Part shown: piece after piece, positions 807 through 58,656 of the stretch
How positions within the stretch are numbered: position 1 is the stretch's first letter
Layout: each line of letters starts with the position of its first letter
Source of the DNA: Malacoraja senta
Lineage: Eukaryota
Assembly: GCA_038087875.1 (NCBI GenBank)
Contig: CM075994.1
Location: 5,458,001-5,522,000 of the forward strand
DNA: 64,000 nt
Direction of reading: 5' to 3'
Notes under the pieces: model-generated
Told to the model about the DNA's origin: nothing
Seen by the model: only the letters and a program-made list of their open reading frames with translations
Database searches by the model: none
Program-made: the position numbers and the translations under genes

Positions 807-833
807 CTGCTTTCAATTCACGTAACTTTTCTT
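807..833 (-). CDS. Microexon 17, 27 nt, EEKLRELKA
   Basis: gatatttgaccttacag|AAGAAAAGTTACGTGAATTGAAAGCAG|gtaaaa. Confidence 0.8.
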
Positions 834-1579: not shown

Positions 1580-1606
1580 CATCGAATTGCAAATGCTTCT
1601 TCAAAT
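1580..1606 (-). CDS. Microexon 16, 27 nt, DLKKHLQFD
   Basis: atatttcataacag|ATTTGAAGAAGCATTTGCAATTCGATG|gtgagt. Confidence 0.8.
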
Positions 1607-1761: not shown

Positions 1762-1788
1762 CTATTTCCTTATGTTCCAGTTCCTCAT
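1762..1788 (-). CDS. Microexon 15, 27 nt, DEELEHKEI
   Basis: cattttaatttcacag|ATGAGGAACTGGAACATAAGGAAATAG|gtaagt. Confidence 0.85.
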   Translation of the reverse strand: MRNWNIRK

Positions 1789-10194: not shown

Positions 10195-10231
<37 letters not shown>

Positions 10232-10275
10232 ACACACACACACACACACACACACACTTATATATATATATATAG
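10137..10275. repeat. (CA)n then (TA)n microsatellite
   Basis: Direct reading. Confidence 0.97.
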
Positions 10276-12080: not shown

Positions 12081-12686
12081 ATACATACCATGGACCATAT
12101 ATATACACAATAAATAAACACATAAAATGCAAGAGGCTGTTAATGTTCAGCCCTCCACCACCTCCTGTTTAAATTCGATTTAGAATATTTATGAAGGACC
12201 AGGAAACCAGAAGCAAGAGTTGCTCCAGGGAGTTACCCCAGATCCAGAGTCAGGGAGCGTTTCTGCGTTGGTTTTCAGCGGTCGCAGCGAGGCGGCGACC
12301 GGACAGCAATGGCGGCCAGATCTCCCACAATTCAAAGCGAGGGAGAAAGTGCCCAGCGCCGACCAGTTGCCCTGGCAGTGCGCATGCGCATGTCGGCCGA
12401 TGATGTGCTGGCCGTGGTTGTGCGCATGTGCAGGGGAGGATGTACTGGCCGTAGCAGTGCGTATGTGCAGGGCGGCCTGCCATGCCTGCGGATCAGGAGC
12501 GAGCGGAGAGCGGTGACCAGGCAGCCCGGACACGGATACGCATGGAGGGCGGAGACGGAGAGAGACAAAGAGAGAGAGATAGAGAGGCCAGAGTTGAACG
12601 GCAGGTGACATGCCTTGGCCAGAGGCCGCCTAGATTTCGAGGCCCTAGGCTTAAGCTTGACAAGCTTATACGTAAATCCGGGCGTG

Positions 12687-13633
12687 GTAGGTGCGAATAG
12701 CAATCCCGTTCGCTGCGGTCAGGAGGGGGCCCCGTTTACGTGCACGGATGTCAGCGATGGAGGGAGGCAGATCACTCATTTCCGCACCATTGTGCACGAT
12801 GAATCGACCCCCAGTGCGGTGATCCCAGGCGAAGACGCGATGAATATTGCCAGCCGCCGAAGGAATCACAGGGTGGGCGACATTGCCTTGCTGCAGCTCC
12901 CCAGCGACGATGGTAATAGCATCAACCCCCTCTGCTGACGTCTGGTGGAACTGCAGGCGAATTTGGCTGGGTTGAACACTAGCGACATCTGCTAGCGTTG
13001 GGTGGAACTGCAGGAGGGCTGTGCTGAAAAGACGTGCCTGCAGTGGAATGCACGATGGCGGCCGGATTTCGCTGCGGGGGCCGACTGGGAGCAGCGCAGC
13101 CGCGGTGGATAGCGTCCCCGATATGATCTGAGCCTCCCGACGCCGCGTGAAGGACGGCCAGTGCTTCCAGGTCCAACTGGCGGGACATCCACAGCTCGTC
13201 TGCCTGCTCGGCCAGCGCCTGCATGTCGGTAAAGGGATTCCTGGCGAGCTGCAGGCGGATGTCGGGCAGGAGCTGCTGCATATAAGCGAATTTAAATAGG
13301 AAACAAGGTTCGTGGTCCCCTATTAGGACGAGCATGTCCTCCAGGAGGGCAGACGGCCGGCGGTCGCCCAGGTCGTCCATTCGGAGAATCTGAGCTACCC
13401 GCTAGGATTCACTAAGGCCAAACCTCCTGACAAGGAATTCCTTAAGGCCCCTATATTTTTTACTTAACGGTGGGGGTGAGGGGGGCTCCAAAGTAAGGCG
13501 CTTGTTCAAGCGCGTTGACCACATAAAAGTATTTTGTTTCGTCCGCAAATTGTGCCTCTGCCGGCTGGAACCAGATGCCACGCTCTTCGGTCCACAGAGT
13601 AGGGAGTTTATGTGCAACGGCGTTGTTATCCAT
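12687..13633 (-). pseudogene. gag: Gypsy gag and protease N-terminus
   Basis: MDNNAVAHKLPTLW...WFQPAEAQF; ORF 12979..13380; protease-like RFIVHNGAEMSDLP...LTAANG in ORF 12666..12869. Confidence 0.85.
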
Positions 13634-13650
13634 CACGATGTGTGATGAAT

Positions 13651-13682
13651 GGCTGCGTGTTCAAATCACGTCGGGGTCACCA
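13651..13682 (-). promoter_or_regulatory. Primer-binding site complementary to tRNA-Trp (canonical 18 nt at 13665-13682, match extends to 32 nt)
   Basis: Minus strand TGGTGACCCCGACGTGAT is the classic Trp PBS; plus strand GGCTGCGTGTTCAAATCACGTCGGGGTCACCA resembles the tRNA-Trp 3' half. Confidence 0.92.
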
Positions 13683-13684
13683 GT

Positions 13685-13873
13685 TGTAGCGGCCAGGACG
13701 AGGTCAGGAGAAGGCCAGACGCCAGGCAAGTTCAAACAGTTGTCTTTTATCACACAGCGAGAGCACACGCCCGAAAGGGACCTCGGGAAACCACGTGGCA
13801 GACCAACGCCCCTGTCCCTCAATAGCCGATGGGGATGATCCAAGGAGTGTCATAACCTCCAGGGACCGCCACA
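13685..13873 (-). repeat. Gypsy 5' LTR (189 bp)
   Basis: Direct repeat of 5136-5323; PBS lies 2 nt inside. Confidence 0.95.
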
Positions 13874-14819
13874 CCAACACAAATTCTCCATTGTTCTATG
13901 AAATTTATTCCCCCGCTGAATACCTTCTGTGAAAAGCAAGCTTTCAAAATGTATATTTCAAATTGATTATTTTGTTCAATTTGCTAGAATTTCCCCATGC
14001 CATCCGTCGTTTGTCAAGTTCAAGATGCCTCGAAAATATGAACGTTTTTCCTTTTACGCTTCCAAATTACCTAAAATGTGACTGCCTTATCTCAAAATGG
14101 TGGTGCAAGCTAACTTGGTTTTAACTTCTCAATCAAGATCACTACCGAACCAGACCTGCTAGCATTTTTGTTCTTCTACACTTGTCGCCAACTGTTCTGA
14201 TTTTGGATGGCCTGTTTTACTGAACTGAATGAGAGCAAGTGGGAGCAGCATAGGAGTGACTGCACCGAACCCTCCGGGGAGGCGACAACGAAATTTAAAA
14301 CCCCCAGGTACGGCGGAAAATGCCGATGAATGAAGAAAACAATTGTCTCAACCTATTTCCCGCTTTCGGTGTCGTGAGGATAATTTAAAAGTCAACTGTC
14401 TATAATGTTCAATCTCTTTTGCAATATGATGAAGATATATAACATAATTTCAATGCGAGCAATTAGATCAAACAAAGTAATCCACATATTATTGCAAGAT
14501 ATAAAGTAAAGGAAAGAAAGCACAGTGTTCTGTAACCAGCGTTTCGTATTGAACTGCAGGTTTCTTCTCATTCTATAAGAAACCGAAATTTTCTGCTATG
14601 TTATTGTTTTTGTCAATGGTTGTCTGATTCCCCCAACGGAAAGCGCGATTAGTCAAAACATGAGTTGATTGCTATGAATTAGAGATCCTCAGACATTACT
14701 CATTTTGCTGATGATGCACAGTGCAACTTCATATGTATAGATTTCTGGCTCTTTAAAATTTTATATCTTAACCGCAAAACGTCATCTTTTTTTTAAGTTA
14801 GCTCAGCTTTATCACTTAC

Positions 14820-15827: not shown

Positions 15828-16856
15828 GGACCCCGTGTGCGGACAGACAAGAAGCCGTAGCATAAAAGCCGAAGCCAAAGAACCGAATAGATACGTGGCC
15901 GAAACGCCGAGGAACCGAAAGAGTCCGAAGACGAAACGCCTACTAACCGAAAGGATGGGACGCCTAAATGCAAACTAACCGAAAGGGCGGGGCGCCTAAA
16001 CGCCAACGAACCGAAAGGCTGCGTCGCCTAAAATCAAACTTACCGAATGGCCGCTCAGTCGAAACGCCACCTACCCGAAAGGCGGCGGCGCCTACAGGCC
16101 AATGGACCGACTGCCGCTCAACAGAAAAGTCCAATAACGGACTTGACGTTACCGGGGGGCGGGACTTGTCAGCGATTGGTTCAGACCCCCGTGCCCATCA
16201 CATCACTGTGAAGGCATGAACATTGTCCCATACCTCCGCTCCACCAATCCCGACCGTGGGAGAGTGGGGCTGTCCCGAGGAATGCACACCTTCGGCCGCT
16301 TTCAACTTGGTGTTTGGGATCAGATTGCCCAGTCACGTACGGCTTGTGTGGGAAAATGAACCCCACGCTCCCGACTCCCCCTTCTCTCTCCCCTGTTCTC
16401 TGTCTCCCGCTCTCTCTCTCTCTCTCTCCATTCTCTCTCCCTTCTCCCTTGGGACAATGTTCATGCCTTCACAGTGATGTGATGGATGCGGAGGTCTGGA
16501 CCAATCGATGACATGTCCCGCCCCCCGGCAACGTCAAGTCCGTTATTGGACTTTTCTGTTGAGCGGCAGTCGGCCCTTTGGCCTGTAGGCGACGCCGCCT
16601 TTCGGGTAGGTGGCGTTTCGACTGAGCGGCCATTCGGTAAATTTGCTTTTATGCTACGCAGCTTGTCGGTTCATTGGCGTTTAGGCGTCCCGCCCTTTCG
16701 GTTAGTTTCCATATAGGCGTCCCTACCTTTCGGTTAGTAGGCGTTTCGCCTTCGGACTCTTTCGGTTCATTGGCGTTTCGGCCTCGTTTCAATTCGGTTC
16801 TTCGGCTTCGGGTTCTTTGCTTCGGCCACTTGTCTGTCGGCGCCGCGTCCGGGTCC
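15828..16856. mobile_element. Foldback/MITE-like element with ~400-bp inverted arms
   Basis: 15828-16230 is the reverse complement of 16450-16856; outer arms are built from ~15-bp CCGAA-containing subrepeats; no TSD found. Confidence 0.85.
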
Positions 16857-26070: not shown

Positions 26071-26097
26071 CTGTTTTCTTTTCTTCCAACAATTTTT
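26071..26097 (-). CDS. Microexon 13, 27 nt, EKLLEEKKT
   Basis: ttgtgtcctttgcag|AAAAATTGTTGGAAGAAAAGAAAACAG|gttcgt; donor weaker. Confidence 0.7.
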
Positions 26098-27553: not shown

Positions 27554-27577
27554 CACATTCGCGCAACCTTTTAATGG
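27554..27577 (-). CDS. Microexon 12, 24 nt, AIKRLREC
   Basis: ttctgctttctttacttcag|CCATTAAAAGGTTGCGCGAATGTG|gtaagg; strong splice sites. Confidence 0.75.
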
Positions 27578-28448
27578 CTGAAGTAAAGAAAGCAGAACAA
27601 TATTAGCAATACGTCTTCTGATTTACGTATACTGATTATTTGGAGTATTTTGTTAACATTAATCTTGTATAATGTCCAACCATGAAATTACCGAATAATT
27701 GTGTTATGTTTGATTCAATTTCATAAACTACGCTTCCGTTCTTTTCAGTGGGTTGGTACAGTAGCCATCATCCAGATTAGATTATTCAAAGTAGCTGATG
27801 TGAAGACTAGAACAAGTTATCATCGGGATACCCAAATTCAGATGTCTTCATCTTAAGTGTGCCACGGAGTGACTTAGAGCGGGAAGATGTCACTGGTTAT
27901 TTGCTGATTATGTGTCTATATTAACAACGTTGTTCCCTTTAATTTGATCGTTACATGTCCCAAAATGTTGTTCATCTTTACCCCTTGAACGGCATACCAA
28001 GGAAACATCAGATGCTACGGAAGATATGTGCTACCATTCATTTTATATTAAGCAAGGATGATTAAAATTGATAGATTTGTAAAGAACAAGCACTGCACAC
28101 CGAAGACGTAGTTACGTTAGATTTATCCAATGTCTCAAAGATGCGGAATTAATGCGAGTCAATCAAGATACAGATAAGTTGTGGACATTAGGTTTTTGAA
28201 AGAAAAGGTGGCTATTATGCGGACGTTGCTAACATAATCTGAGATAATTAGAGTAGTCATAGATTATTCATAAAAGTATTGAGAGGTAAGTACAATAACG
28301 GAGGTATATAACGATCGCGACCGTCACATAAAGCAAACTGATATTCATAGAATCGACCTCTTCCATACCAGAACTGTTCAAGTATTTTGGGTCACTAGGC
28401 CATTCTTATCTCAAATATTGGAAAATTGAAATTCACGCTTGTGTGTAC

Positions 28449-28475
28449 CTTCATCTTTATCAGTGATCGGAGTTT
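28449..28475 (-). CDS. Microexon 11 (TDKD repeat exon), 27 nt, ETPITDKDE
   Basis: ttgttcattaatttccag|AAACTCCGATCACTGATAAAGATGAAG|gtacac. Confidence 0.75.
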
Positions 28476-28656
28476 CTGGAAATTAATGAACAATAGCTGT
28501 ATACATCAACCAGGTTAAAACGTGTTAATTTTGTGTCGCAGTTTAAACTTGAACGAGATTGCGCCATCCAATGATTTTATGCTTTCATTACTTTGTTTCT
28601 AAGTACATAGATATGCATCTGCCCGGGAAACACCACATGCTTCAACCGGCTTGTTA

Positions 28657-29262
28657 AAAGGTCTGTCTCACGAATCTGCGGTCATTGGCGGCGAAACGGG
28701 AAGAATCTGCCGCCATAGACCGCGCACTCGTGAGAAAGAACAATTCCCGGGCCGTGCGACGGTGTTCCCAACACCGCGCGGTGCAAAAATAAAATCGACA
28801 ATGTCGAAAACACTATCCTCACCGCACAACCTCCACCAGTGATGCACGAGTGCGCACGGCCGCTCGCACGGGCCGCCCCCAGTGTGGGTCGAGCGCCGTG
28901 CGTCAAACCTCCTCTGCCACAGCCTCCGCCAGTGACGCACGTGCCGCCGCCAGTGAGGCACGTGTGCTGCGCGGCCACAGGCACAGCCATCGCTACAGCG
29001 CCGCGATCAGGATGGCCGCCGCCACAGCCGCCGCTGGTGAGTCACGTGCGGGGGGCCGACGTCATCGAAGTCGGCCCGCCCTTTTTTTACTTACCGCAAG
29101 CACGTGGGACCCGCCGTGTTTGAATTAACTCGGCCCCCGCGCAACATCCGTGCAGCGCCCCGGTGGATAGGCTCGACGCTCTCGCCGTTGCCGCGCGGTC
29201 CTCGCTACCGGCGAGGCCGCGCTTCACCGCCGATGACCGCAAACAGGTAAGACACGGCCTTA
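28657..29262. mobile_element. PIF/Harbinger-like MITE
   Basis: TIRs AGGTCTGTCTCAC..TGCGGTCATTGGCGG / CCGCCGATGACCGCA..AGACACGGCCT; TAA/TTA-like flanks; sister copy inverted at ~38548-39085. Confidence 0.75.
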
Positions 29263-29674
29263 AGTGAATGTATATTATGGAATGTTGCGCATATCGACTA
29301 AAAATTGCTTGATATTGAAATCAGCGGTTCCGAATATCAATTTGCACCTGGTCTGCGGGCACTAAGCCGTGCACCCTGGTGTGAAAAAAACACATGCTAC
29401 ATATGAAAGCTTGTGAGTAACTTTTGTCTTCTCCATGCACCATTGTTGTAAGTAAATCCAATCATGATATCCTGAGCTCAAGGCAAAGCCACTATATTCA
29501 ATCACGCAACGAAGATGAATTCCTTCGCATAAGTTAGCATAGCGTGCAGAGATGAGCGTTCTGATTTTAGGATTTCATGTTTAATTTTATTATATTAATT
29601 AACGTGTGTGTTTGTGTGTACGTGGAGGGCTGTGCGTGTGTGTGCGTGTGTGTGCGTGTGTGTGGAAAACACTT

Positions 29675-29997
29675 CTAGGTTCATGAGTATACAAGCCCAG
29701 CCTCTCCATTCTTTCAATATATGACAGTCCCCCCATCCCGGTATTTAAAGTGGTGAATCTTCGTTGCCCTTCCTCAATAGCAAGAACGTCCTTCCTCAAA
29801 TTGGGAGAAAATACTCACTGCTCACAATACTCCAGATGTGGTCTCACTGGGGCCCTGTACAACTGCAGAATGACCTATTTGCTCCAATTATCTACTGCTC
29901 TTCTATGACGGCCAACATGCCATTTGCTTTCTTCACTGCCTGCTGAACCTGCATGCTTACTTTAATTGAGTGATGAACAACGACTCCCAGATCACTT
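29675..29997 (-). mobile_element. CR1 RT fragment
   Basis: MRKDVLAIEEGQRRFT...ERLGLY. Confidence 0.85.
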
Positions 29998-31099
29998 CCC
30001 TCTCAGCGACCCTGAAATGTCAGTGAAAACAACAGCGAGAAATTTGCTACAGATATAAATCGTTGCATGGAATTAAAATAAAAGGTTTATATGCGATATG
30101 GCTACGAAGGAAACTCAAACAATATATTGAAAAGTATATTTCAACTGTAGCGTCCTTACTCTGTTTAGAGGTAACCAGCACAAGTAAAACTGTCAACATA
30201 TATATTTTTGCATGGAACAACTCTGCCACAATGTTCCGTCATGTACGCGTGATACTAGTCATATAGTTATGCAAATTTCAAACTAGACGTGCGAAGTACA
30301 TCCTACATGGGAACCATCTACAATGCAGCGTAACTACAGATGTAATAGATTTGCCTTTGTATACACGGCCATTGTTATAAGCGACATAGAAATGCTATAA
30401 AACTCCATCTCATCCAAGTTCAAATTCAAGTTCAAGTTCGAATTCATTGTCATATGTACCAAATCAGATACAGTGATAATTATTTATTCCTTTGACCTTT
30501 TCATATATGTGTGAGACGTCAACTCTGGTAATAATACCTTGGATGAAAATAGTGGGTAAGCTCCAACCATGAGCCTGTGTTATCCGCAAATGCATCCGTT
30601 GCTCTTGACCGTTAAACTTGCTTAAACATTGTTCAAACTATATTCCAGCGAACAGAAGACCAAAGAAACAATATATGATGAGAAGATGTGACGGTGCTTC
30701 CTGGCATTTTATTTTGAAGTGAAGATGAAAATAATTGATAGATGTGTAAAGAATAACAATACCGTACGGAGCATTCATATATTCATTTCACTGTATCCAA
30801 TACATCCATGAAGCAGAATTAAGACAATCTAATCAAGACACGGAGTGGTTGTGGGGAAATGATTTTTGGAAGATTGGTTATAATTTGACACTCGCTGTCG
30901 TACATTGAGTAAATTCCAGCACTCAATAGTTAATAATAAGTGCATTGAGAGGTAAATGTTAGAAAGGCCGTGTTTTACAAAAATCTAATATTATGCAGTG
31001 AGTACTCCTTTTCCACTCTAGAAATGTTCAAGGATATTAGAGCAATATGATATTTTGTGTTTCAAAGATTGGAAAATTCAATTTCGCGCATGTGCATAC

Positions 31100-31126
31100 C
31101 AGAATCTTTATCAGTTTTTGATTCAT
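31100..31126 (-). CDS. Microexon 10 (TDKD repeat exon), 27 nt, DESKTDKDS
   Basis: ttcttcattttgtgccag|ATGAATCAAAAACTGATAAAGATTCTG|gtatgc. Confidence 0.8.
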
Positions 31127-32165
31127 CTGGCACAAAATGAAGAATATCAGAAAGAGTAATTTCTATTGATTAATACGACTTCAATGTACCCACACATTAT
31201 TCTCAATTGCATAGTGTGGGAAATCTGCACGTTACATGTACCTCCAATGACTGAATTCATGATATATATGACTTGTTATATTTCATTGCGTGGACAAAGA
31301 AAATAATGTGATTCTGGTTTTTTTCCGCGATAATATAAATGATTCATAGAAGCAAATTTATACTTTGAGCGGGGAACACACATTTATTTAAACTGCTTGA
31401 CAAGCGAATGCCCATGCTCGAATATTGGGCTTAAACTCATAATACGTAGAAATCAGCGGTCAGACAACATCCTGCTCCATCATGCATTGTCAAGATCCCG
31501 ACATGTCGTGTATTTCCTTCCGCTAATGCTTCATCATCAATTGAATTATCTCCGCAATATTTATCATGAAGTACATAATGTGGATTTTAGGTGGTCCGAA
31601 TATCAATTTGGAGCACGTCTGCATGCGTTACACCTGCTGCCTGCTGTGAAGGATCGCAGAACGCAGCTAGGAGCCTATGATGACACCTGTGTTCACCCCG
31701 GTACATTGTTGTCTGTAAACACAACCAAAACACGCTGAACTGAAGGCAAATTCACAATAGTTAATCAGTAAATGCCGTTGCATTTGTTAGAATACGTTAA
31801 CGTGTAAAGATGATGATGTTCCTTTTAATGACAACATATTTATTGTACGTATTTTAATTAATGTTATACATTTAAATTACGTTTAATATTTTACGAATAA
31901 TGTGTGTATCGTTTTATTTCTAATTTACTTTCGTGTTCCGCGTATAACTGTTTACCATGAACTTGGTCAGTCAAGTCCTTTGACTGACCTGGACATCATA
32001 AATTCTTCGAGATAGGCTGGATATTAGTTCTTGTCACTTGTAATCCAGTCGCTCCATTTTAAGGAAGAGGTCGTTTTACTGTATATCACTTAGCACGTCT
32101 AGGCAACTTCGTGCCATTAAGAACGGTATCAACAAGGGGATCAGTGCAGACATTGAACACAGGAA

Positions 32166-32196
<31 letters not shown>

Positions 32197-33578
32197 CACC
32201 CGTCCAAGTGTGTTCGGTCCATGGCTTCCTGGGTAACGTTGTCGTCAATCCTTCAGCAATGACCACTTCGGCTACATACAACATATTAAGAATATATGTG
32301 CATAGAGCGTGCAATGGTTTCCATTTGTCAACCGGACATGATATTCCTTATCTGAATTTTATATTAATGGGTTCAATTTTAACAACGACACATTATTCTG
32401 CCTCTTTACATGAAACACGTGCTTAACGTGCCTACTGACAATTTGATATTCATCGTTTGATATAACACTGAATACGTCTGTCCTCATTGCCATGCACTTC
32501 GTGAACTCCACCAATTTGAATTTAAAACGAACTTACAAGCAAAACATTTGACATGTTGTTCCTGTGTTATGGATTTATTGTGGCTGTGTGTGTTTATGTG
32601 TGCGTGCGTGTGTATGGTAGTGAACATTGACTTCGGAAATTCTCACTCAGCTACACTGCAATCTAAGTGAAATCAAGAGCGAGAAATATGCTGCACATCG
32701 AAACCGTTGCATGGGAAATAAAATACAAAACATATGTGCTTGAGACTGCGATGAAAATAATATATACTGAAACAAACTTATTTTGTTAGCGTCCTCAATG
32801 TGCTTTGAAGCATCTACCAATAGTAACACTCAAAAGGTTATTTATTCTTGAATGCAACAACTATGTCATAATTTGCCGTCATGTTCGCGCGATTCCAGTA
32901 GTTTAGTTATCCAAGATTCATATCAGACGACCAAAGTGTAATGGGTAACATATACAGTGCAAAATCACTGCATAAGTAATAGATTTTATATTGAAGACGC
33001 GTCTATTTCAAATATTAACATGTTTAATCCGCAAAATGCGACGATCAGTGTGACCCGAGCAAGTCAAAATCGGAGCCAATAACTTGTAGACATTATATGA
33101 GACTCCATGAGGTTTTTTGTGCCTTTGCACAATTTATATATGTGTGAGACTTGAACTCTGGTAATTATGCCTCAGAGAAAAGTGGTGGGTAAGCTCAGAT
33201 CATGTACCTCTATTGATACATTGCCATTGTTTGTTAAACTTGCTTAAACTTTATTCATGTATATGCCAGCGAACTGATTATCAAAGCAACAATACATGGA
33301 CAGATGATGTGATTGTGTTTCCTGACGTTTTGCTTTGAGACAGAAATTATTAAAATTGACAGATGAGTCAAAGACTACGAATACATTCGGAAGACTAAAT
33401 ATATTACTTTCATTGTATCCAATGCATAAATAAAGCTGAATTAACGCGATCTAATAAAGAAACGGGGAGATTGTCGGAATATGATTTTTGACAGAAACAT
33501 TGGTTATAATCTAGAACTCGCTGACAAACATTGAGTTAATTCGAGTATTCAAACGTTATTGATAAGTGAATTGAGAGG

Positions 33579-34210
33579 TAATGCTCCTGTCCCACTTAGG
33601 GAACCTGAAGGGAAACCTTGCGCGGTGAAGATGAAGGTAAACGGCTGTCACAGAGCACGGTAAGTCCTTTAGAGAGCGCGGGAGGGAGGGAGAGAACGGT
33701 AAAGAAGTGGAGAGAAGGACAGATAAGGGGAGAGAGAAGGGGAAGAGAAGGGGAGAGAAGGGGAGCGAGAAGGGGTGAGAAGGGGAGAGAAGGGGTGAGA
33801 AGGGGGGTAGAAGGGGGGAGTAGGGGAGAGAATGGGGGAGTAGGAGTGGAGACAATTTTAATAAGTTTAATAAAGTTCGCGGGCATTTAACCTTCCGGCT
33901 GATTGTCTAGGTTCTGAAAACCAAAGATCCTTCAGGATTTTTGTTGAAAACTCCAATGAGCCAATCAAAATGGCCGGTCAGCGAAGTAGATTGCCTTCGA
34001 CAGCTTGTAAGTAAATAGCGACCCCACTCCACCGGCTTCCACCAAACGGCAACCAATTTTTAGTCGAGGTCTGTTTTGATTTTGTTGAAATAATCGCAGG
34101 AACATAGAAGAAGCCTCGACTACGCGGAAACCACTTTCGACCATTAGGGAGAGTGACCAAAACCTCCTGGAACCTCCGGGAACCTCACGGAAATCTTGGG
34201 TGGGGCGCAA
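33579..34210. mobile_element. Harbinger-like MITE with purine-rich internal tract
   Basis: Begins TAA-TGCTCCTGTCCCACTTAGG; GA-rich tract at ~33680-33850; interrupts a tandem-array unit. Confidence 0.55.
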
Positions 34211-34388
34211 ATGAGACATGGGCATAAGTGTAAGAACGGAGGGATGGAACGGTTTGGACACTCTTTACAAAAATAAAATATTATTTATACAGTAGTCCTT
34301 TCCCGCACTAGAACTGTTCAAGGATATTAGGCCACTCTGACATTTCGTATCTCAAATGATTGGAACATTCAAATACGTGCATGCATAC

Positions 34389-34415
34389 CTGCATCTTTAT
34401 CAGTTTTGGTTTTAT
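34389..34415 (-). CDS. Microexon 9 (TDKD repeat exon), 27 nt, DKTKTDKDA
   Basis: ttcttcttttcgtgccag|ATAAAACCAAAACTGATAAAGATGCAG|gtatgc. Confidence 0.8.
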
Positions 34416-36476
34416 CTGGCACGAAAAGAAGAATAAATTCTAATAATTCATTACTCATCAAGTTACCCACATATCTTTCGCAATTGCTCTGTGTAGGATT
34501 CCTATATGCTGCATGTACCAGTAATTACTGAAATACTAATATCCATGACGTTATATTTCATTGTGCAGACAAAGAAAATAAAGCTACTTCTGTTGTTTTT
34601 TCTGCGGTAATATAAAAGTTTTGTAGAATTAATATTAGTCTGTGCATATCTTCCAATTTTTCAATTTTATATCAACTGGTATAGAACGTCTTATTTTATG
34701 TCGCTTTGTTGTAATGGAAATTTATTTCCCCACCCCATCCGCCGTACAGGGGTTAAACGTCTTGAATCCATGGAAGCTGATAAGATAGATTCATCTAATC
34801 GGGAAACATATATTGCTTGTGTTATGAAGCACATACTGCAGCTAGAAACTTGAGGGTGACTTTTGACTCCTCCCTGAGACATTATTGACTGTAAACCCAA
34901 TCTTTATACCACGAACGGCAGCCGAGGCTGCTATAGTTAATCGCGCAGCGCAGACGAATTCCTGAGCAGAAGTTTGCCGAGTAGAGATGAGCGTCTATAT
35001 TTTATGATTTCTGGTTAATTTTAGGTATTTTAATTTATTTGTTTGTGTTAATGTGTTTGCGCCTGCCTGTGTTTTTCAGATATTTGACTTCAGAAACTCT
35101 GCCAAACTGCAATTTCAGTGAAAACAATAGCGAGAACTATGCTACACATATAAATCGTTGTATCTGAGTCGAAATAAAAAGGATTATATGCGCTTAAGAT
35201 TAAGAAGGATACTCAAAAATTATACTGGAATTTACATTTCAATTGTAGCGTCCTTGCTGTACTGAGAAGCTAGTAATACTGAAACATATTACTTAATCTT
35301 GAATGCGACAACTATGTCATTATTTACCGTCATGTTCGTGTGTTACCAGATCATACAAAACGAGCAATGTGCTTCCTGCATTGGAACCATCAACGGTGCA
35401 GCGTAACTACATAAATGACATAACTACATAAACTACATAAACTACATAAATAATACATTTTTGTTTAAATACGCGCCTATTGCAATTATAAATATATTTC
35501 ACCTGCAAAATGCGACGATCAGTGGAATCGTCGCAAGTCAAAATCTGGGGCATTAACTAATAGAAATCCGTTTAAATCATTATACCGTTGATCATTTTAA
35601 ATGTATGTGATACGTGAAGTCTGGTAATGATACCATGGATAAAAATAATGTGTGAGCTCAGATCATGTGCCTCTTTTAACCGCAAGTTAACCCATGGCCC
35701 TTGACGGTACAACTTGCTTAAACGTTGTTCCTCTCATGATTCAGTGAATGAAAGATCAAATGAACTATACATGGACAGAATGTGCGACTCTTCTTCTTGA
35801 CATTTTACTTTAAGGCAAAGATGAATAAAATTGATAGATGAGTAAAGGACAACCATTGCGTACAGAAGACTTAGCATATTACGTTCACTCTATCCAATGC
35901 ATCAACGAAGTAGAATTAAGGCGATCTAAACTACACACGAAGAGTTTGTGGGAATTTGATTTTTTAAAGGAATATTGGTTTGCTATCTGGAACTCGGTGA
36001 CATACATTCAGTCAATTCCAGCAGTCAAAGGTTATTGATGAGAGCATTGAGAGTTTAGTGTAAGAGTGGATGGATGAAACGGCCAGGAGCATTTTTGGAA
36101 AAATAACATATAATTTAGAGAATAGTCCTTTTCCTTTCCAGAACTGTTCAAGGGTATCAGCCTCAAAGTAAAAAGCCTGGAAGCACTGTCAGAACTTCTG
36201 CCCATGTATCGTTTATTTGATGTTCAATTCGCTGGAAAATAAGATGAACAAAGTTTCAGAAGTTTAAACATCAAAGGCAATGGATAAACTAGCGGTTAAC
36301 AAAGGCACATGATTTAAGGGTACCCACTATTATTATGCATGGTCTCATTACCAGACTTCACTTCTCACATGTATATCTATTGCTCAAAGATATAATTAAC
36401 CAAATACAGTCTTATAACAATCTGACGTTTTATGTATCTCAAAGATTGGAATATTCAAATTCGCGCACATTCATAC

Positions 36477-36503
36477 CTGAATCTTTATCCGTTTTTGAAT
36501 CAT
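36477..36503 (-). CDS. Microexon 8 (TDKD repeat exon), 27 nt, DDSKTDKDS
   Basis: cttcttcatttcgttgcag|ATGATTCAAAAACGGATAAAGATTCAG|gtatga. Confidence 0.8.
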
Positions 36504-38547
36504 CTGCAACGAAATGAAGAAGACCCATAAGAATATTTCCATTATTTCATTATTCATCAAGTTGCCCACATATTATTTTCAATCGCATTGTGTATGACAC
36601 GTAAGCATAATATCAATTACTTCTTATATTTCATTGGGTACACAAAGACAATAATGGTTATAAGCGTTTTCGGTATTTTGACTGCGAATTATCAGGCCAT
36701 AGGTCACTCGCGGTAGACTTTCTCCGCAGCTATAATGCTGGGTTGTGCACAGGCCTGTGTTTCGTCCGTGATCGGGGTCGGGCCCGGTTCTTCGGCGCAG
36801 TTGAGTTGCTGTTGAGCATTACCCGTCCCCTCCCGTGTGTCCCGTCCCTGTCCGGGGGTGTCCGGGATGGCCCTGGGCTGGCGATCACTGACCTGCTACC
36901 CGTGCGGAGGGGGAGCGCTGGCACCGGTTCGGCTCTGCTACGGCTCCGGGGGGCGCGTTCCCTGGCGGACCTGGGCCCATCGGCTGCGCCTCTCGCCTTT
37001 TCCAGTGGCTGTCGGTTGGCCCGATCGGTGCCGGCGGGGGCCGAGCGCCGTTCATCGGCGAGATGCACACCTGCAGCGTCTCGGCGGGTAAGGCATCATC
37101 TCTGAAGAAGGGCCAGAACCAAAACGTCACCCATTCCTTTTCTCCGGGGATGCAGCCTCTCCCGCTGAGTTCTTGCAGCGTTTTGTGTGTGCCCCGTTGA
37201 TAGCTGGTTCTCGGCTTTCGCCGGCGACGGATTGAGTTGGACGGCGGCCAATAAGTTGGGCGGGGTGTGCGTCGGAGAGCGGCTTCCTCGGGAGTTGGAG
37301 CGGGGTTGAGCTAGAGTTGGCGCTTCTTCTCCACGTTGGCTTTAGGCCTGTGACTGCCCCTAATCCGGGCCGCTGTCCCGTCGGTCCTGGACTGTTGCTT
37401 GGCCCTGCGGGACAGGCGGAGTTGTGCTGGGGATCATGCTTCAACTCTGCTCAGGCTGTGATACGTCGCTCCTCCGGTCCGCTGTCTCGCCGCTCCGGGG
37501 CGGTCGGTTGGGGCGGCGGGACAGGAGCTGTGGTTGGCGCTTTTCCACGCTGTCTGTGGGCTTGTGGATCGCCGCTCTTCCGGGCCGCAGTTCGGTGGCT
37601 CCGGACGTTACAACGGTCCGGACGTCACACCCTGGTCCAAAAGGCATCGTCGAACCGGTCTAAAGAGTGTTCCCGGCCGAAACGTCTTGTATTTCCATCC
37701 GCAAATGCTTCATAATGCAATTTGTTTTAAATTTATCATTATACGTATGGGCGCATTTCAAAGACTCTCAAGGACGCCTTGCAGATAAGCAGACTACAAA
37801 ACATATAAGCAGAATAAAAAAATTAAAAATAGTAGGGATTTCAACAACATCACAATACACAAATTAAGGACATAATTCATTCTAAAGGCACAAAAAAGAA
37901 AATCAGAAACACAATTTGAGGCGAGAGCAGCGCCCGCGTCCACTCTCTCCGCAATGAGTTCTTTGCGCAATTTAGATTATGAAATGCTTACTTTTAAAGT
38001 AAGGTTTTCCGAATTTCACTTTGTATTAGTCAGCATGGGCTAAGCCCTGGAGCCTGTTGTGAAGAAGCGCAGAACGCAGCTCCATTATTTGGTTGACATC
38101 TGTCTCCGCCCCGGGGCATTGTCGACTGTAAACCCGCTCGCTCCCCTCAACTAACAGCAAAGCCACGATGGTTAATCAAGAATTGCAGATAATTTGTTCG
38201 AATAGGATAACCTGTAAAGATGAGGGCCTTCCTTTTAATACTGCATGTTTATTTTAGATATTTTAATCAATATATTTAATTTGGAATTGTATCTAATATT
38301 TTACTCATATTAATGCACACGTGTACCTCGTATTTTGCTTTATCGTGGACTTTTAAAAAATGTGGACAAATTCTTTGACTAACTAAGATTTAAGGTCGAC
38401 GAGATACACCATGTGCTGGACATTAGACCTTGCCACAGGTGGCCGATGGCCCCGTTTCAATGAAAATGGTGTTTACTATCAGTTAACATATATTGGCAAC
38501 TGCGTGACGATGTTATGGCATCCTAAGCTTAGACGCACTTTCCATTC

Positions 38548-39085
38548 GTAATGGATCTGTCCCACGGGTTTGCGGTCGTTGGCGGTGAAGCGCGGCGTCG
38601 CCGGAACAGGGGACGGCACGGCAACCACGATAGCGCCGCACGGATGTTGCGCGGGGGGCCAAGTACGGCCGGTTCAACAAGCTTGCGGTTTCGGCTGATG
38701 ACGTATTTCGGATCGCGGGGCTGTGGCGGCGGCCGTGCCGCACACGTACCTCACTGTCGGCGGCTGTGGCGGCGGCCGTGCCGCACACGTGCCTCACTGG
38801 CGGAGGCTGTGGCGGTGCAGGTTCGACTTACGGCGCCCGTGCCTCATTGGCGGCGGCTGTGGCGGTGACCGTGCCGCACTCGTGCCTCACTGGCGGCGGC
38901 TGTGCGGTAGGAACATATTTTTGGACAGTGTTGGGTTTTGTTTAGCACCGTGCGGTGTTGGGAACAACGCCGCACGGCCCCGGAATTGTGCGTTTGACCG
39001 AGCCCGCGGTCTCTGGCGGCCCAGGAGCGGTAGATATTTCCTGTTTCGCCGCCAATGACCGCAGACTCGTGAGACAGGCCTTTTA
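38548..39085. mobile_element. PIF/Harbinger-like MITE (same family as 28657-29262, opposite orientation)
   Basis: TIRs CTGTCCCACG.. / ..CGTGAGACAGGCCT; internal ~39-bp GC-rich subrepeats. Confidence 0.75.
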
Positions 39086-39244
39086 CACTGGCAAAATATA
39101 ACTTATATTTTGCAACAACTGTTTCATAATGTCCCATCATTTTTGCGCGAAACCAATTGTTAAGTTAAAGAAAGTTAATTTAAGACAAGCGAAGAGCATC
39201 CTTCATCGGAACCACCGAAAGTGCATCGTAACTACAGAACTAAT

Positions 39245-39607
39245 AGATTTGCTTTAGAATATACGGATTCGTCCGCCCGACGCAGGGGCACCGACAGGAG
39301 AGCTTCGACTGCCCCGACGCGGGAGTTTCGATAGCCCGACGCAGGGGCTTCGTACGATGGCTACGGGAGCTTCCATCGCCCCGACCGCCGATGGTTCGAC
39401 TGCCCGACCGCGGGAAATTAAAGAGGGAAGAGGATTCTACTTTATGGCCTTCCATCACAGTGAATGTGGAGAATCCGCGGAGGTGGGTGTTTATGTTAAC
39501 TTTCATGCAGTTTTGTGTCTTGTTGCTTTTTGTCGCTGTATGGTAATTCGAATATCACTGTACCTTAATTGGTACATGTGACAATAAAAGACCTTTGAAA
39601 CCTTTGC
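39245..39607 (+). mobile_element. Non-autonomous GC-rich retroposon with a LINE-derived tail
   Basis: GC-rich subrepeats, core GCCTTCCATCACAGTG, tail GTGACAATAAA plus short repeat. Confidence 0.55.
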
Positions 39608-40585
39608 ACTGATTGAAATGTTTCATTTGCAAAATGCGGCAATCTGTCTAATCCTAGCAAGTCAAAATCTGGGCCAATAACTTGTAAAATGTCTTATAAG
39701 CCTCCATTTAGTTCATTATACATTTGAACATTTCATATATATGTGAGACGTGAACTCTAGTAACGATGGCATGGATAAAAATAGTGGGTAATCTCAGATC
39801 ATGTGCCTCTGTTAACTCTAAGTTGATCCATTGCCCTTGATTGATAAACGTGTTTAAACTTTGTTCTTCTTATGTTGTAGCGAGTGAAAGACCGAAGACA
39901 CATCATGAGGACAGAAGATGTGACTGCTTCTGAGCATTTAACATTAAGGCAGAGATGATTAAATGTTATAAATGAGTTAAGGACAACCAATGCGTACAGA
40001 TGTCTTAATATATTACGTTTTCTGTGGGTTCAAGGGAAGAGGGATCACTTCGCTGCCCTTTTTGCCACCAATCTTCCGATGACCACGCACAAGACGCCAT
40101 TGTATGCAGATGCCGAGAAATATGTACAGTTTTGGCTGAAATATTTCTAATCTTGTGATGTAGACTCGGTAAGATGGCTTTCACTGTATCCAATGTATCA
40201 ATGAAACAGAATTAAGGAGATCTAAACAAGAAACAGAGCGGTTGTGCGGATTTGATATTTTACAGAAACAAGTGTCAAGAGTCAACAGTGTTTTGTTGTC
40301 ATATGTCCCAGATAGAACAAACAAATTCTTACTTGCTGCAACGCAACAGAATGTGTCTGTACATTAAGTTACATTGCGTTCATTCCAGTACTCAAAAGTT
40401 ATCGATAAAAGCATTGAGACGTAAGTGTAAGGACGGTGCATATAACGCCCAAGGCCGTTTTCACAAATCTAAAATCACCTTTGCAATATAGTGATTCTCC
40501 GCGCCAGAACTGTTCAATGATATTAGGGCACTATGACGTTTTGTATCCCAAAGATTGGAACATTGAAATTCGCGAATATGCGTAC

Positions 40586-40612
40586 CTGAATCTTTATCAG
40601 TTATTGCTTTTT
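40586..40612 (-). CDS. Microexon 7 (TDKD repeat exon), 27 nt, EKAITDKDS
   Basis: ttcttcttttcgtgccag|AAAAAGCAATAACTGATAAAGATTCAG|gtacgc; paralogous to four other exons. Confidence 0.8.
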
Positions 40613-40699
40613 CTGGCACGAAAAGAAGAATAGCCATGCATAATGTCAATTGATTCATTATTCATCAAGTTACCCACATATTATTCTCAATTGAATTGC

Positions 40700-41398
40700 G
40701 CAGGATACCTGGATCGATGATGGTTTTGCGATCGACGAGCGATCAGCGGTCGATGAGCGTGTTAGGTGGGGGTGTCGGAGGGGAAGACAATGGGGACTTG
40801 GCAGAAGCGTGTGCCTCGGCGACAATTGAAGCCTTGGCGGCGGCGGGGCGTCGGCGGGGCCTCGGCGGCTGCGGGAGCCTCGGTGACGTTGGTGTCTCGT
40901 GATCGACAAGCGATAAGCGGTGGATGAGCGTGAGGGGGGGGATGATAAATGGTACCCGGCGTGTGGGGACCGCCGTGAAGACCAAAGGGGACCCGGCGTG
41001 GTGCGGCCGTCGTGAAAAATAATGGGATCCGGCGTGGGTGGACGGCCGAGAACAACAATGGGGAACCGGCGTGGAGGAACCGACGTGAGAGTCGGTGGGA
41101 GGAGAAAGGGAGACCAGGTATGGGTGATGGGAGGGCACTCTAGATTTTGAATCCTCTGCCCAGGGGATAAGCCTGCGTTCGTTTCTTTGTTCGTTCGTTC
41201 GTTCTGGTTAAGGTGCTGGGCACACGGCAGCCAGCCAACAGTCGCTTGTCTTTTTCTTCATTTATTTCACTTTTAATTTAATTTTAATTTCCGGTTTTCG
41301 TGTACCTTGTTGTGTTTTGTTATCAGACCAATCTGGTGCCAGACCAATCTCCCTCCGGGGATGGATAAAGTTTCATCGTATCGTACCGTATTATATCG
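40700..41398 (+). mobile_element. Non-autonomous retroposon with (ATCGT)n-like tail
   Basis: GC-rich insert interrupting an array unit; ends GGGGATGGATAAAGTTTCATCGTATCGTA. Confidence 0.5.
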
Positions 41399-43574
41399 TT
41401 CCTGCAAATGCTGAAATCCTAATATTTTTGTTATAGTTATTTGCGGAGACAAAGAAAATAATGGAGATTCTGGGGGGTTTCCACGATGGTATAAATGTTT
41501 GTCAGAAGCTACATTGGCCTGTGTATAATCTCTACAATTTTATATCCATTTGTTTAACAGTTGTTATTCTTGTATCCCTCTAATTTTTTAACTCGAAAGA
41601 AATTTCCCTGCCTCATCAGCTGTAAAGTGGTTTAAGGTTTAAAGCTTTAATTCCTTGAATGATAATCAGATAGTTATTCATCTGAGCGGACAATAAATAA
41701 TAATTTGAACTGCATGACATGCACGAATATTGGACATAATCATAAATGTGTTATCACTCATCGGGCCAGGCAACATTCAGGTCCAACAGGCATATCAAGA
41801 TCCGATCTCAAGAGAGGTCCTGACTCGAAACGTCGCGGATTTCCGTCCGCATCTGCCTCATAATCCATTGGGTGATTCTAGCAATTTTGATTATGAAATG
41901 CTTAATGTTAAAGTTAGGTGTCCGCAATATCACTTTGTAATTATTCTCATGGGCTAATCCCTGCACCGTGCTGTGTTGATGCGCAGAACGCAGCTGGATG
42001 ACTATTGGTGACAACTGTCTCCACCGCCGGTCATTGCTGACTGTAACCCGATCATTACAGCATGAACTAACAGGAAATGTATGGTTAATCAGGAAATACA
42101 TCAGCATTTGTTAGAATACGTTAACGTTTTTATGACTGCATGTTTATTTTAGGTATTTTAATTAATTTATTTAATTTGAAATTTTGTTTCATATTTTACT
42201 AATATTGTTATTTATGTTGTTATTTCTAATATACTTACGCATTTATTGTGGACTTTTACAAAATTGTGGACAAGTCCTTTGACTGACCGTCGAGATATAT
42301 ATGGGCTGGATACTAATTTTTGTCACTGGTGTTCCAGTCGCTCCTTTTTAAGGAAGAGACGGTTTTATGTCAAATGGCACAGTGAGCAAGAGTCGGATCA
42401 GTGCAACACCGAAATAAGTGTTAGACCTATTCGTACCCGTCCAAGTATGTTCGGTCCATGGATTTCAGATTCAGCAATGAAGAATTCGGCAACCAACATG
42501 CAAAGTATGAAAATCTGCGCAGAGGGCGTTACTTGATTTCCCTTCATCAACGCGATATGTATTTTTTTAAATTAATTTCAATCAATCGATCTAATTTTAA
42601 CATCAACGCTTATTGCCGTTCTTATGATTTGTTACACGAACCACAGACTTAACATGTCCTGCTGATATAACTTGATATTTGTCGTATGATCTAACACTGA
42701 ATACATCTGTCCTTACACCCATGTATTTGGTGAATTCCACCATTTTCAATTATACACTGCCTTAAAAACGAACTCACAGGCAAAAACGTTTTACATGTTT
42801 TTCCTGTGTTCTCTGATTGAGTGTGTTTCTTAGTTTGTGTGCGTGTGTGTATGTGCGCGTGCGTGCGTGTGTGCTTGTGTGTATGTATGAACGGCAACTG
42901 CGCGCATGTGTGAACGGAGAATCGGAACAATCTGAGTGTGCTGCAAGCGCTGAATGCAGAAGCCATGTTTATTTAGCCAATCATCTTCGGAAATACCCAC
43001 TGCACTACACTTCAATGTAAGAGGAAAATAATAACGGAAATGTGCAACACATAAACATTGAAGCATAATAATTGAATTAAGAGATTTATATATGCTTGAA
43101 ACTAAGAAGAATGCATAAAAAATGCTGAAACAAATTTCAATTTTAGTGTCCTTTATGTGCTCAGGAGCAGTTATCACTGGTAACACTGTGTTAATGTTAT
43201 TTATTCCTGGTTAGACCAACGTTTTTTTAAACTAATTTACCATCATTTTCGAGCGATAGCAGTCGTTTAAACAACGTTCATAAGGGACGAGATAATTACA
43301 TCCTACAGAGGAACGACGACAGTGGATCATCAATTTAAAAGCAATATCTTTCCTTCTGCGTACGCAGCTATTGCGGTTATTAACACATTTCATTTCCAAA
43401 ATGAGTCGGGCCGTGTGATCTCATCAAGTCATACTCTGGACATTAACAGCAGCAAAGCAAGACTATTTTTAGTTCCTCATAAACTTAACCAACTCAGATA
43501 TATATGAGACACATGAATTCTGGAAGGTGTACCACGTGTAAACATCCATTTCGTGATTGTTGATTATTTCTTAC

Positions 43575-43601
43575 CTTTTTCGGCTTGCAACTTTTTAATT
43601 T
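43575..43601 (-). CDS. Microexon 6, 27 nt, EIKKLQAEK
   Basis: ttctattttttcatacag|AAATTAAAAAGTTGCAAGCCGAAAAAG|gtaaga. Confidence 0.85.
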
Positions 43602-48989: not shown

Positions 48990-49016
48990 CTTCATCTTTT
49001 CGCCTGAGCTGCTCTT
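48990..49016 (-). CDS. Microexon 5, 27 nt, EEQLRRKDE
   Basis: ctatttttttatgcag|AAGAGCAGCTCAGGCGAAAAGATGAAG|gtgatt. Confidence 0.8.
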
Positions 49017-51019: not shown

Positions 51020-51965
51020 CTGCCGATACACAAGCATAGTTACATTTTCGTGACACATTGCGACACTACAATAACATGTTTTATACGGTTTTACGAGCAA
51101 CTTCACGATAAGTCCAATTTGCAATTGAGAATCACTTCAATTGTACAAATACATTCGTATGTTTTCATTCTTGGCATTATGTATACAGAAACGCACTTCA
51201 AGCGGACTACGTCCAAATTAAAAAATAATTTTCAAACCACAACCCTCAGATAATTAAAATTAAACATCTGTCGACAATGATGAAGTGTTTACAAATTCGT
51301 CAACATCATATTTGTCCCATTATAAACCTGTATTTTCTGTTCAAATGTATTTGAACAACATATCCCATGAAGTAAGGTGAGTCGGGAAACAAATGTTGCT
51401 TGCACTCGTCAGCCACTGCGAATCGGAGAAGGAAGGAGTTTAGTGGCTCCTAGATCGAGGGTGCGTGGTATTCGAGAAACGTTACCAAAGGCTGCAGCAT
51501 AGTAGACTGCGCATGGATGTCAACAACGGAACTATTTTTGCAATGCGTGATATCACGACAAATCTAACGTGCGTTATCAGCGTTTGAGTTTCAGGGTAAC
51601 GGCGTGGTGTTAAAAGGGGATTGCTTTTTTACTGGTTAGAATAGAGCAACAAACCAATAAGTTGATTGCAAATGATGTTCATTATGCCTGTATTTTATCG
51701 TAAATTATTTATATATAAATGCAGGACTAAATATACTAACATATTTATAAAATACGCTAGCTCCAATACTTTTCGAGTAATTTTAACGATTGTTTCTAAT
51801 GTCGAATTATTGTCAGGAATTTGAAGACTTTTGTGGAATTTGAAATCCCAATCGTACTACCTAGAACGTGGAATGAGTATTTCAGTATGCAACCTTGTAC
51901 TCATTGTTATCATGATGGCAAACGTAAAATTAAAGTTTATAATTGTCATCGAGTCTGGATCTTAC

Positions 51966-51992
51966 CTGCTGGTTTAGTAATTGATTTATCTT
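51966..51992 (-). CDS. Microexon 3, 27 nt, EDKSITKPA
   Basis: cctttatatatttttag|AAGATAAATCAATTACTAAACCAGCAG|gtaaga. Confidence 0.8.
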
Positions 51993-54005: not shown

Positions 54006-55783
<1,778 letters not shown>

Positions 55784-56292: not shown

Positions 56293-56328
56293 CTGTTTCT
56301 TTAAGGAGTTTTCTTAATGCTAGTATTA
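56293..56328 (-). CDS. Microexon 2, 36 nt, VILALRKLLKET
   Basis: ttttcattttgattgtacag|TAATAC...GAAACAG|gtgaga; phase 1/1, open; an internal AG would give a 27-nt alternative. Confidence 0.7.
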
Positions 56329-58632: not shown

Positions 58633-58656
58633 CTTCATCTTTTTGCTTCTCTGTTT
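58633..58656 (-). CDS. Microexon 1 of minus-strand host gene, 24 nt, (E)TEKQKDE
   Basis: Minus strand reads catattttccgaacag|AAACAGAGAAGCAAAAAGATGAAG|gtaaga; 3n length, phase 1/1, open. Confidence 0.75.

What the first reader, a model, noticed from the sequence alone, without database searches (positions are those of the whole stretch)
27650..43530. Protein repeat grown by tandem duplication of whole exon-plus-intron units
Seen: five collinear, heavily diverged kb-scale units, each with exactly one 27-nt exon at the homologous position. All five keep AG/GT, the 27-nt length and the core AC(T/G)GATAAAGAT (T-D-K-D; the one change is synonymous), while flanking intron and the first four codons vary. 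Inference: purifying selection on a TDKD motif. T-x-x-D fits the CK2 phosphorylation consensus, so the array may insert a variable-copy hydrophilic, phosphorylatable spacer between two coiled-coil segments.
Basis: partly seen in the sequence, partly recalled or inferred. Interest (0 to 1): 0.75.

Follow-up and report, generated by a model that had tools for sequence, protein, structure and literature searches.

The report
Five duplicated microexons in coiled-coil gene
An animal gene carries five old head-to-tail copies of a roughly 2.6-kb stretch, each with one intact 27-base exon-like unit, which likely add a short polar linker to a predicted coiled-coil protein; this way of lengthening a protein is already known, for example from chicken BG immune genes.

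Summary
Observation confirmed, on the minus strand. Five units (43545 to about 27890) share one junction, are 61-73% identical in their introns, and each holds one 27-nt phase 1-1 exon coding xxx(I/K)TDKD(S/A/E). They lie among 11 further candidate 24-36-nt phase-1 microexons predicted to code a K/E-rich helix. Splice sites and frame are kept better than intron controls (2-6 of 668 windows); four invariant residues in a row occur in 0 of 976 intron blocks. But the whole exon is only modestly conserved (79 of 977 windows match it), and two intronic 12-mers downstream are as conserved as the TDKD core, so splicing signals explain part of it. The CK2 idea is weak: 46% of shuffles hold the motif, and the invariant Lys is unfavourable. 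Best reading: one helix exon duplicated with its intron, expanded to five; inner copies drifted into a polar linker. The host gene resembles a butyrophilin/BG-type tail but could not be identified; inclusion in mRNA and copy-number variation are not shown. Known mechanism (chicken BG, avian troponin T P exons, piccolo b). The scan has notes on related intron-plus-microexon duplications in other genomes, none on this array.

The parts
27890..43545 (-). Tandem array of five exon-plus-intron units; insertion-poor unit about 2.6 kb
   Evidence: self-BLAST, multiple alignment, junction alignment
39783..43545 (-). Unit 1 (starts about 30 nt after the donor of the exon at 43601-43575)
35647..39782 (-). 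Unit 2, with high-copy repeat insertions and an inverted copy of unit sequence at 36157-36433
33184..35646 (-). Unit 3, with a deletion of about 1 kb and an insertion at about 33582-34224
30551..33183 (-). Unit 4, no large insertion; best model of the ancestral 2.6-kb unit
27890..30550 (-). Unit 5, the most diverged (61-67% to the others); holds a LINE fragment (29672-29993) and a GC-rich repeat (about 28655-29254)
40586..40612 (-). Array exon 1, 27 nt, phase 1-1; Ile before TDKD, Ser after
36477..36503 (-). Array exon 2, 27 nt, phase 1-1; Lys before TDKD, Ser after; carries the one silent core change
34389..34415 (-). Array exon 3, 27 nt, phase 1-1; Lys before TDKD, Ala after
31100..31126 (-). 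Array exon 4, 27 nt, phase 1-1; Lys before TDKD, Ser after
28449..28475 (-). Array exon 5, 27 nt, phase 1-1; Ile before TDKD, Glu after (likely closest to the ancestral exon); weak donor in the window, +5 reads G in both DNA runs that cover it
   Evidence: place 28444
43575..43601 (-). Candidate exon just upstream of the array, 27 nt, phase 1-1, strong splice sites
27554..27577 (-).
58633..58656 (-). Candidate upstream microexon, 24 nt, ends in KDE like array exon 5
56293..56328 (-). Candidate upstream microexon, 36 nt
51966..51992 (-). Candidate upstream microexon, 27 nt
48990..49016 (-). Candidate upstream microexon, 27 nt, ends in KDE
26071..26097 (-). Candidate downstream microexon, 27 nt, weaker splice scores
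14820..14855 (-). Candidate downstream microexon, 36 nt
1762..1788 (-). Candidate downstream microexon, 27 nt
1580..1606 (-). Candidate downstream microexon, 27 nt, weak acceptor; frame stays open 89 codons past its donor
807..833 (-). Candidate downstream microexon, 27 nt
40515..40565 (-). Conserved intronic halo downstream of each array exon (two 12-mers with 11 of 12 invariant columns; coordinates approximate, given for unit 1)

Best explanation
Five tandem copies of a 27-nt, frame-neutral (phase 1-1) exon-like unit with its flanking intron sit inside a gene predicted to be built of microexons, and they likely lengthen a predicted coiled-coil stalk or tail with a polar linker of up to 36 extra residues. 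Steps: (shown) one duplication fixed a single junction that all four internal joints share; (inferred) later copies arose by unequal crossing-over between units; (shown) all copies kept splice sites, length and an open frame while introns drifted to 61-73% and took up separate insertions; (inferred) the ancestral exon belonged to the gene's recurring helix motif K-D-E-x-I-x-x-L, the two outer copies keep the Ile that fits the helices on either side, and the three inner copies lost it and became a flexible break; (inferred) TDKD is held by a mix of exon-recognition signals and the ancestral helix motif, not by a CK2 site; (inferred, about 45%) the host is a butyrophilin/BG-type membrane protein whose Ig and transmembrane exons lie beyond the window.
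For: Shared junction. Intron identity and tree with unit 5 longest. Gap-free 33-column window with the splice columns invariant: 6 of 668 intron windows for 4 columns, 2 of 668 for 7. Four invariant residues in a row: 0 of 976 intron blocks on either strand, 0.0007 in column resampling. pN 0 and pS 0.20 in the core codons against pN 0.38, pS 0.49 in codons 1-4. Conservation extends into the downstream intron (pairwise 0.70-0.84 against 0.68). A relaxed scan for charged phase-1 microexons gave 22 rows on the minus strand and 2 on the plus strand, 15 of the 22 being listed exons. Array 4% large hydrophobics and 27% Ser/Thr against 23% and 6% in flanks. K-D-E-x-I-x-x-L is formed at three exon joints of the conceptual product. 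A second, about 85% identical copy of 30140-30945 in both DNA runs, above the 63-72% of any window homologue, points to a paralogous locus. Precedent: chicken BG tails of phase-1 microexons with exon repeats that expand and contract (PMC5043582, PMC5938342 passages).
Against: The whole exon is not much more conserved than intron (79 of 977 windows reach 15 of 27 invariant columns; 136 of 977 reach its pairwise identity). The first 11 nt are less alike (0.56) than intron (0.68). Absence of stops alone is weak (25% of intron blocks). Coiled-coil periodicity of the flanks is not significant (p 0.125-0.255). None of the 16 candidate exons has the 21-nt length typical of BG. No Ig, SPRY or other non-transposon Pfam domain in 82 of 180 long frames scanned. 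Splice scores came from approximate matrices written from memory. Five sequences give little power and the overlapping windows are not independent.
Confidence: 0.55

Rival explanations
1. The five exons would be alternative or mutually exclusive cassettes: each mRNA takes one copy, or a tissue-dependent subset, giving variant 9-residue segments or tails of stepped length rather than one fixed linker.
For: Equal length, equal phase and homology fit tandem-duplicated exon substitution (PMC9741552 passages). Any subset keeps the frame. A single copy with Ile (exon 1 or 5) restores the hydrophobic spacing across the flanks. Avian troponin T P exons are spliced in by tissue and age (PMC7581897 passages).
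Against: Introns between the copies are 2.1-4.1 kb, so no steric exclusion; no conserved pairing found. True mutually exclusive events are rare, 236 in human. Amplified piccolo b exons and BG repeats are mostly co-included.
Confidence: 0.25
2. One reading: selection would keep T-D-K-D as a CK2 site, and the array would be a variable-copy phosphorylatable spacer.
For: T-x-x-D meets the minimal CK2 consensus in all five, with an acidic residue at +1, and three more S/T-x-x-D sites arise in inner copies; the flanking exons hold none. pN is 0 in the core.
Against: 46% of shuffles of one exon peptide hold the motif. Basic residues are described as detrimental and nearly absent at CK2 sites (PMC5832243 passages), yet Lys at +2 is invariant. 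KD is shared with two non-array exons that lack the Thr. No copy-number variation seen.
Confidence: 0.1
3. Only one copy (likely exon 5 or 1) is used; the others would be silent passengers whose intact look comes from limited divergence, gene conversion around the exon, and after-the-fact choice of the core.
For: Whole-exon conservation within the intron range; equally conserved intronic 12-mers exist.
Against: Five of five keep CAG, GTA, length and frame at 27-39% intron divergence (2-6 of 668 control windows); exons 1-4 have higher splice scores than exon 5; codons 1-4 differ strongly between copies, which argues against recent conversion across the exon.
Confidence: 0.1

Closest known systems
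Chicken BG genes (butyrophilin family), cytoplasmic heptad-repeat exons; BG0 three-exon repeat and BG1 four-exon repeat (PMC5043582, PMC5938342, PMC4046983: passages seen)
   Same: Long run of tiny phase-1 exons coding a charged predicted coiled coil; groups of exons repeated in tandem, attributed to unequal crossing-over; multigene family; in-frame intron read-through.
   Different: Here exons are 27 nt (12 of 16), 24 and 36 nt, none 21 nt; introns are kilobases; the repeat unit holds one exon; the repeated exon lost hydrophobic residues; Ig and transmembrane exons not seen; copy-number variation not shown.
Avian fast troponin T P exons (PMC7581897: passages seen)
   Same: Up to seven tandem tiny exons adding a repeated hydrophilic motif to a helical protein.
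   Different: Different protein and motif (His/Glu-rich); regulated inclusion is shown there, not here. That P exons arose as exon-plus-intron units is recalled, not seen in a call.
Teleost piccolo b exon amplification (PMC3484663: passages seen)
   Same: One symmetric exon amplified many times by single-exon gains and losses, ascribed to unequal crossover; conserved patches within otherwise fast-diverging copies.
   Different: Exons of 700-1350 nt coding zinc-finger halves, phase 0; co-inclusion shown by RT-PCR.
Symmetric-exon internal duplication as a general route to repeats and disordered modules (PMC3632108: abstract seen; PMC1553488: passages seen)
   Same: Phase-symmetric exons duplicated in tandem, tending to code disordered segments.
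   Different: None in kind; here the intron homology and the junction are still readable in all five copies.

Membership tests
Tandem duplication of symmetric exons | Homologous exons of equal phase in tandem | tested here: met
   five 27-nt phase 1-1 exons, 16-24 of 27 nt identical pairwise
Tandem duplication of symmetric exons | Flanking intron duplicated with the exon, breakpoints in introns | tested here: met
   intron identity 0.61-0.73; one shared junction
Tandem duplication of symmetric exons | Copies spliced into mRNA | not testable with these tools
   only indirect support from conserved splice sites and frame
Butyrophilin / BG family | Extracellular Ig-V (and C) exon and transmembrane exon | not testable with these tools
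   would lie beyond position 64000; no genome held; none in 82 frames scanned
Butyrophilin / BG family | C-terminal B30.2 (PRY-SPRY) domain (butyrophilins; absent in BG) | not testable with these tools
   would lie before position 1; none in the frames scanned
Butyrophilin / BG family | Tail coded by a run of phase-1 microexons | tested here: met
   16 candidate phase-1 exons of 24-36 nt on one strand; predicted, not seen in RNA
BG genes in the strict sense | Tail exons mostly 21 nt (one heptad each) | tested here: not met
   0 of 16 candidates is 21 nt; 12 are 27 nt
Butyrophilin / BG family | Heptad coiled-coil periodicity | tested here: inconclusive
   peak at 3.5 residues downstream of the array, p = 0.125 against shuffles
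Butyrophilin / BG family | Member of a multigene family | tested here: inconclusive
   one contig about 85% identical to 30140-30945 in both DNA runs; a paralogue, an unassembled extra unit or a diverged haplotype cannot be told apart
Mutually exclusive tandem exons | Homologous, same length and phase | tested here: met
Mutually exclusive tandem exons | Never two copies in one transcript | not testable with these tools
   needs RNA; no exclusion device found
CK2 substrate sites | Minimal consensus S/T-x-x-D/E | tested here: met
   but met by 46% of shuffles
CK2 substrate sites | Acidic context without basic residues | tested here: not met
   invariant Lys at +2; basic residues detrimental (PMC5832243 passages)

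The most novel reading that the evidence does not exclude
The five frame-neutral microexons act as a combinatorial, tissue-regulated hinge (up to 32 inclusion patterns, 0-45 residues) in the coiled-coil tail of an undescribed BG-like immune receptor family of a cartilaginous fish, with paralogues differing in hinge length: an independent invention of the chicken BG strategy on a 27-nt instead of a 21-nt module.
Probability: 0.15. Interest if true: 0.55.

Novelty: new member of a known kind. Interest (0 to 1): 0.3.

Why it matters
It is an unusually readable record of a protein repeat growing one microexon at a time: the unit, its single junction and the drift of helix residues into linker residues can all be traced. 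Annotation pipelines easily miss a gene made of 24-36-nt exons spread over 58 kb. If the host is a butyrophilin/BG-type gene it would extend BG-like tail expansion beyond birds. The mechanism itself is established, so the general lesson is small.

Tried and rejected
No whole genome is held, so the gene's ends could not be read. No RNA holder listed. Run X3 was laid only on repeats, 5 of 30 bins. The 98-residue read-through frame 1314-1607 found no homologue: 26 candidates, none at E <= 1, and 0 hits among 1.84 billion representatives. Pfam on 82 of 180 frames of 90 residues or more gave only retroelement-type domains. Rfam: 0 matches in the window. A suspected pairing between the exon core and the downstream conserved intron 12-mer was rejected: z-scores -0.32 to +1.21, consensus energy -4 kcal/mol with an unfavourable covariation term, 1 of 11 pairs with a two-sided change. 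No intron homology between the array exons and the other 11 exons within 300 nt (z <= 4; the one high pair is two overlapping windows). Tandem Repeats Finder does not see the array (period over 500). Assembly artefact rejected because units are 27-39% diverged and carry separate insertions. Literature: searches listed no paper on this array or on BG-like microexon tails in sharks or rays; the library lacks most subscription papers. The one held supplement of PMC12841164 has no TDKD; its figures and the BG papers' supplements were not seen and may bear on exon sizes in fish butyrophilins. The scan's own notes had nothing near, in relatives, by sequence or under butyrophilin words.
Full report
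Observation. Each match lies in a 27-nt segment bounded by a pyrimidine tract with CAG and by GTA, ending in G, so each is a phase 1-1 exon without a stop: 40612-40586, 36503-36477, 34415-34389, 31126-31100 and 28475-28449. They code xxx(I/K)TDKD(S/A/E); T, D, K, D are the only invariant columns. Sensitive self-alignment shows five collinear units from 43545 to about 27890. After I cut out insertions by hand, 1003 gap-free intron columns give pairwise identities of 0.61-0.73, with unit 5 the most distant. The four internal junctions align at one position (near 39783, 35647, 33184, 30551); left of it they match the tail of unit 5, right of it the start of unit 1, about 30 nt after the donor of the preceding exon. 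The unit is therefore nearly the whole upstream intron, the exon and about 560 nt of the downstream intron, about 2.6 kb in the insertion-poor unit 4. Units carry separate insertions, a deletion and an inversion, which marks the array as old. Public DNA contigs cover exons 1-4 with 0-1 differences per listed piece, and one 2.7-kb piece spans exons 2 and 3; these runs come from one study and may include the assembly's source, so they are not independent, and no listed piece spans the whole array.

Are the exons under selection? The test fixed in advance is splice sites plus length. Of 668 intron windows of 33 columns, 210 are gap-free, 6 also have the four AG/GT-position columns invariant and 2 have all seven columns that are invariant around the exon. 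Four consecutive invariant residues occur in 0 of 976 intron blocks read in frame, 0 of 976 on the other strand, and at 0.0007 in column resampling; four invariant residues anywhere occur in 10 of 976. In the core codons pN is 0 and pS 0.20; in codons 1-4 pN is 0.38 and pS 0.49 (only about two silent sites per pair). Against this: the exon as a whole has 15 of 27 invariant columns, reached by 79 of 977 intron windows; the core's 11 of 12 is reached by 2 of 992 windows, and 32 of 977 27-column windows contain such a 12-mer. Both intronic 12-mers lie shortly downstream of the exon, in a zone with pairwise identity 0.70-0.84. So the exons are probably functional, and TDKD is more constant than chance, but part of the signal is a halo at the nucleotide level that fits exon-recognition elements as well as protein constraint. 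The windows overlap and five sequences give little power. A pairing between core and downstream intron was tested and not supported.

The host gene. A scan with approximate splice matrices (written from memory) finds 11 more phase-1 candidates of 24-36 nt on the same strand between 58656 and 807, including one at 27577-27554 just past the array. A relaxed scan for charged microexons gave 22 minus-strand rows and 2 plus-strand rows; 15 of the 22 are listed exons, the other 7 I left out as nested, longer variants or lying in repeats. Twelve of the 16 exons are 27 nt, two 24 nt, two 36 nt. The conceptual product is K/E-rich with spaced Leu/Ile in the flanks (23% large hydrophobics) and polar in the array (4%; Ser/Thr 27% against 6%). 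The motif K-D-E-x-I-x-x-L is formed at three exon joints, one of them array exon 5 with the next exon, and 59512-59814 is 72% like 51470-51774, so the gene had duplicated exon blocks before. Hydrophobic periodicity peaks at 3.5 residues downstream of the array but is not significant (p 0.125), so 'coiled coil' is a prediction. The rest of the window's recognisable coding sequence is retroelement. The repeat tails look like those of shark and ray SINEs and LINEs; this is recalled and was not tested. Both DNA runs hold a contig that differs from 30140-30945 at 122 letters in about 800 (about 85%), whereas the window's own homologues reach 63-72%: a paralogue, an extra unit or a diverged haplotype. 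At 28444 both runs read G at +5 of the exon 5 donor where the window has A, so the one weak donor may be stronger in other copies.

Mechanism. Shown: one junction, five copies, intact splice sites and frame, polar drift of the inner copies. Inferred: an ancestral exon ending in I-T-D-K-D-E was part of the helix; one duplication with intronic breakpoints made two units; unequal crossing-over raised the number to five; the outer copies kept the Ile that fits the neighbouring helices, the inner three replaced it with Lys, and copies 1-4 end in Ser or Ala, so co-inclusion would insert up to 36 extra polar residues as a break in the stalk (0.55). Rivals: alternative or mutually exclusive use (0.25), a CK2 phospho-spacer (0.10), silent passengers (0.10). 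The CK2 reading is weak because 46% of shuffles of exon 1's peptide hold S/T-x-x-D/E and because basic residues are described as detrimental to CK2 (PMC5832243, passages) while Lys at +2 is invariant. T-x-x-D also resembles a helix N-capping box (recalled, untested).

Comparison with what is known. [quoted passage not shown] Butyrophilins are reported in cartilaginous fishes and with variable heptad numbers in squamates (PMC12841164, passages). Avian troponin T has up to seven P exons with a repeated hydrophilic motif, spliced in by tissue and age (PMC7581897, passages). Teleost piccolo b amplified one exon 8-16 times (PMC3484663, passages). Symmetric exons often arise by internal tandem duplication and tend to code disorder (PMC3632108, abstract; PMC1553488, passages). 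Mutually exclusive use of duplicated exons is rare (PMC9741552, passages). This array works like those cases. It is a member of the class 'tandem duplication of symmetric exons'. It is not filed as BG (no 21-nt exons) and membership of the butyrophilin family could not be tested (about 45%, from architecture alone).

Verdict. A real, cleanly preserved exon-plus-intron array in an unannotated-looking microexon gene; the mechanism is known, the phospho-spacer idea is unsupported, and inclusion, copy-number variation and gene identity remain open. New member of a known kind; interest 0.3.

Noticed in passing
window 1314-1606, minus strand: The frame of the microexon at 1606-1580 stays open for 89 codons past its donor, like BG-type intron read-through; no homologue found.
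   Followed up: partly
window 59512-59814 and 51470-51774: 72% identical intronic stretches, a trace of an older multi-exon duplication in the same gene; a sister of the 51992 exon may lie beyond the LINE at the window's end.
   Followed up: no
window 36157-36433: Inverted copy (72%) of unit sequence (39677-39953) inserted about 45 nt downstream of array exon 2.
   Followed up: no
window 30140-30945 and 31362-31502: Contigs about 85% identical to the window in both DNA runs: paralogue, extra unit or diverged haplotype.
   Followed up: partly
window 28444 and 34385: Differences between window and runs fall in array donors: +5 of exon 5 (both runs) and +4 of exon 3 (run X1 only).
   Followed up: partly
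window about 43570-43555 and 27910-27895, minus strand: The two ends of the array share a short AT-rich likeness (about 11 of 14 letters in the junction alignment), a possible microhomology for the first duplication; could be chance.
   Followed up: no
window 5136-13876: Decayed Gypsy-type LTR element (LTRs 5136-5326 and 13685-13876, 86% alike; RT, RNase H, integrase) with nested LINE pieces inside a 13-kb intron.
   Followed up: no
window 15839-16841: Inverted repeat of about 390 nt, 90% identical, with internal 32/64-nt repeats.
   Followed up: no
window 28655-29254 and 38558-39085: The same GC-rich high-copy repeat inserted separately, in opposite orientations, into units 5 and 2.
   Followed up: no
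window 54914-55613: 700-nt (TG)n microsatellite in the intron after the 36-nt exon at 56328.
   Followed up: no
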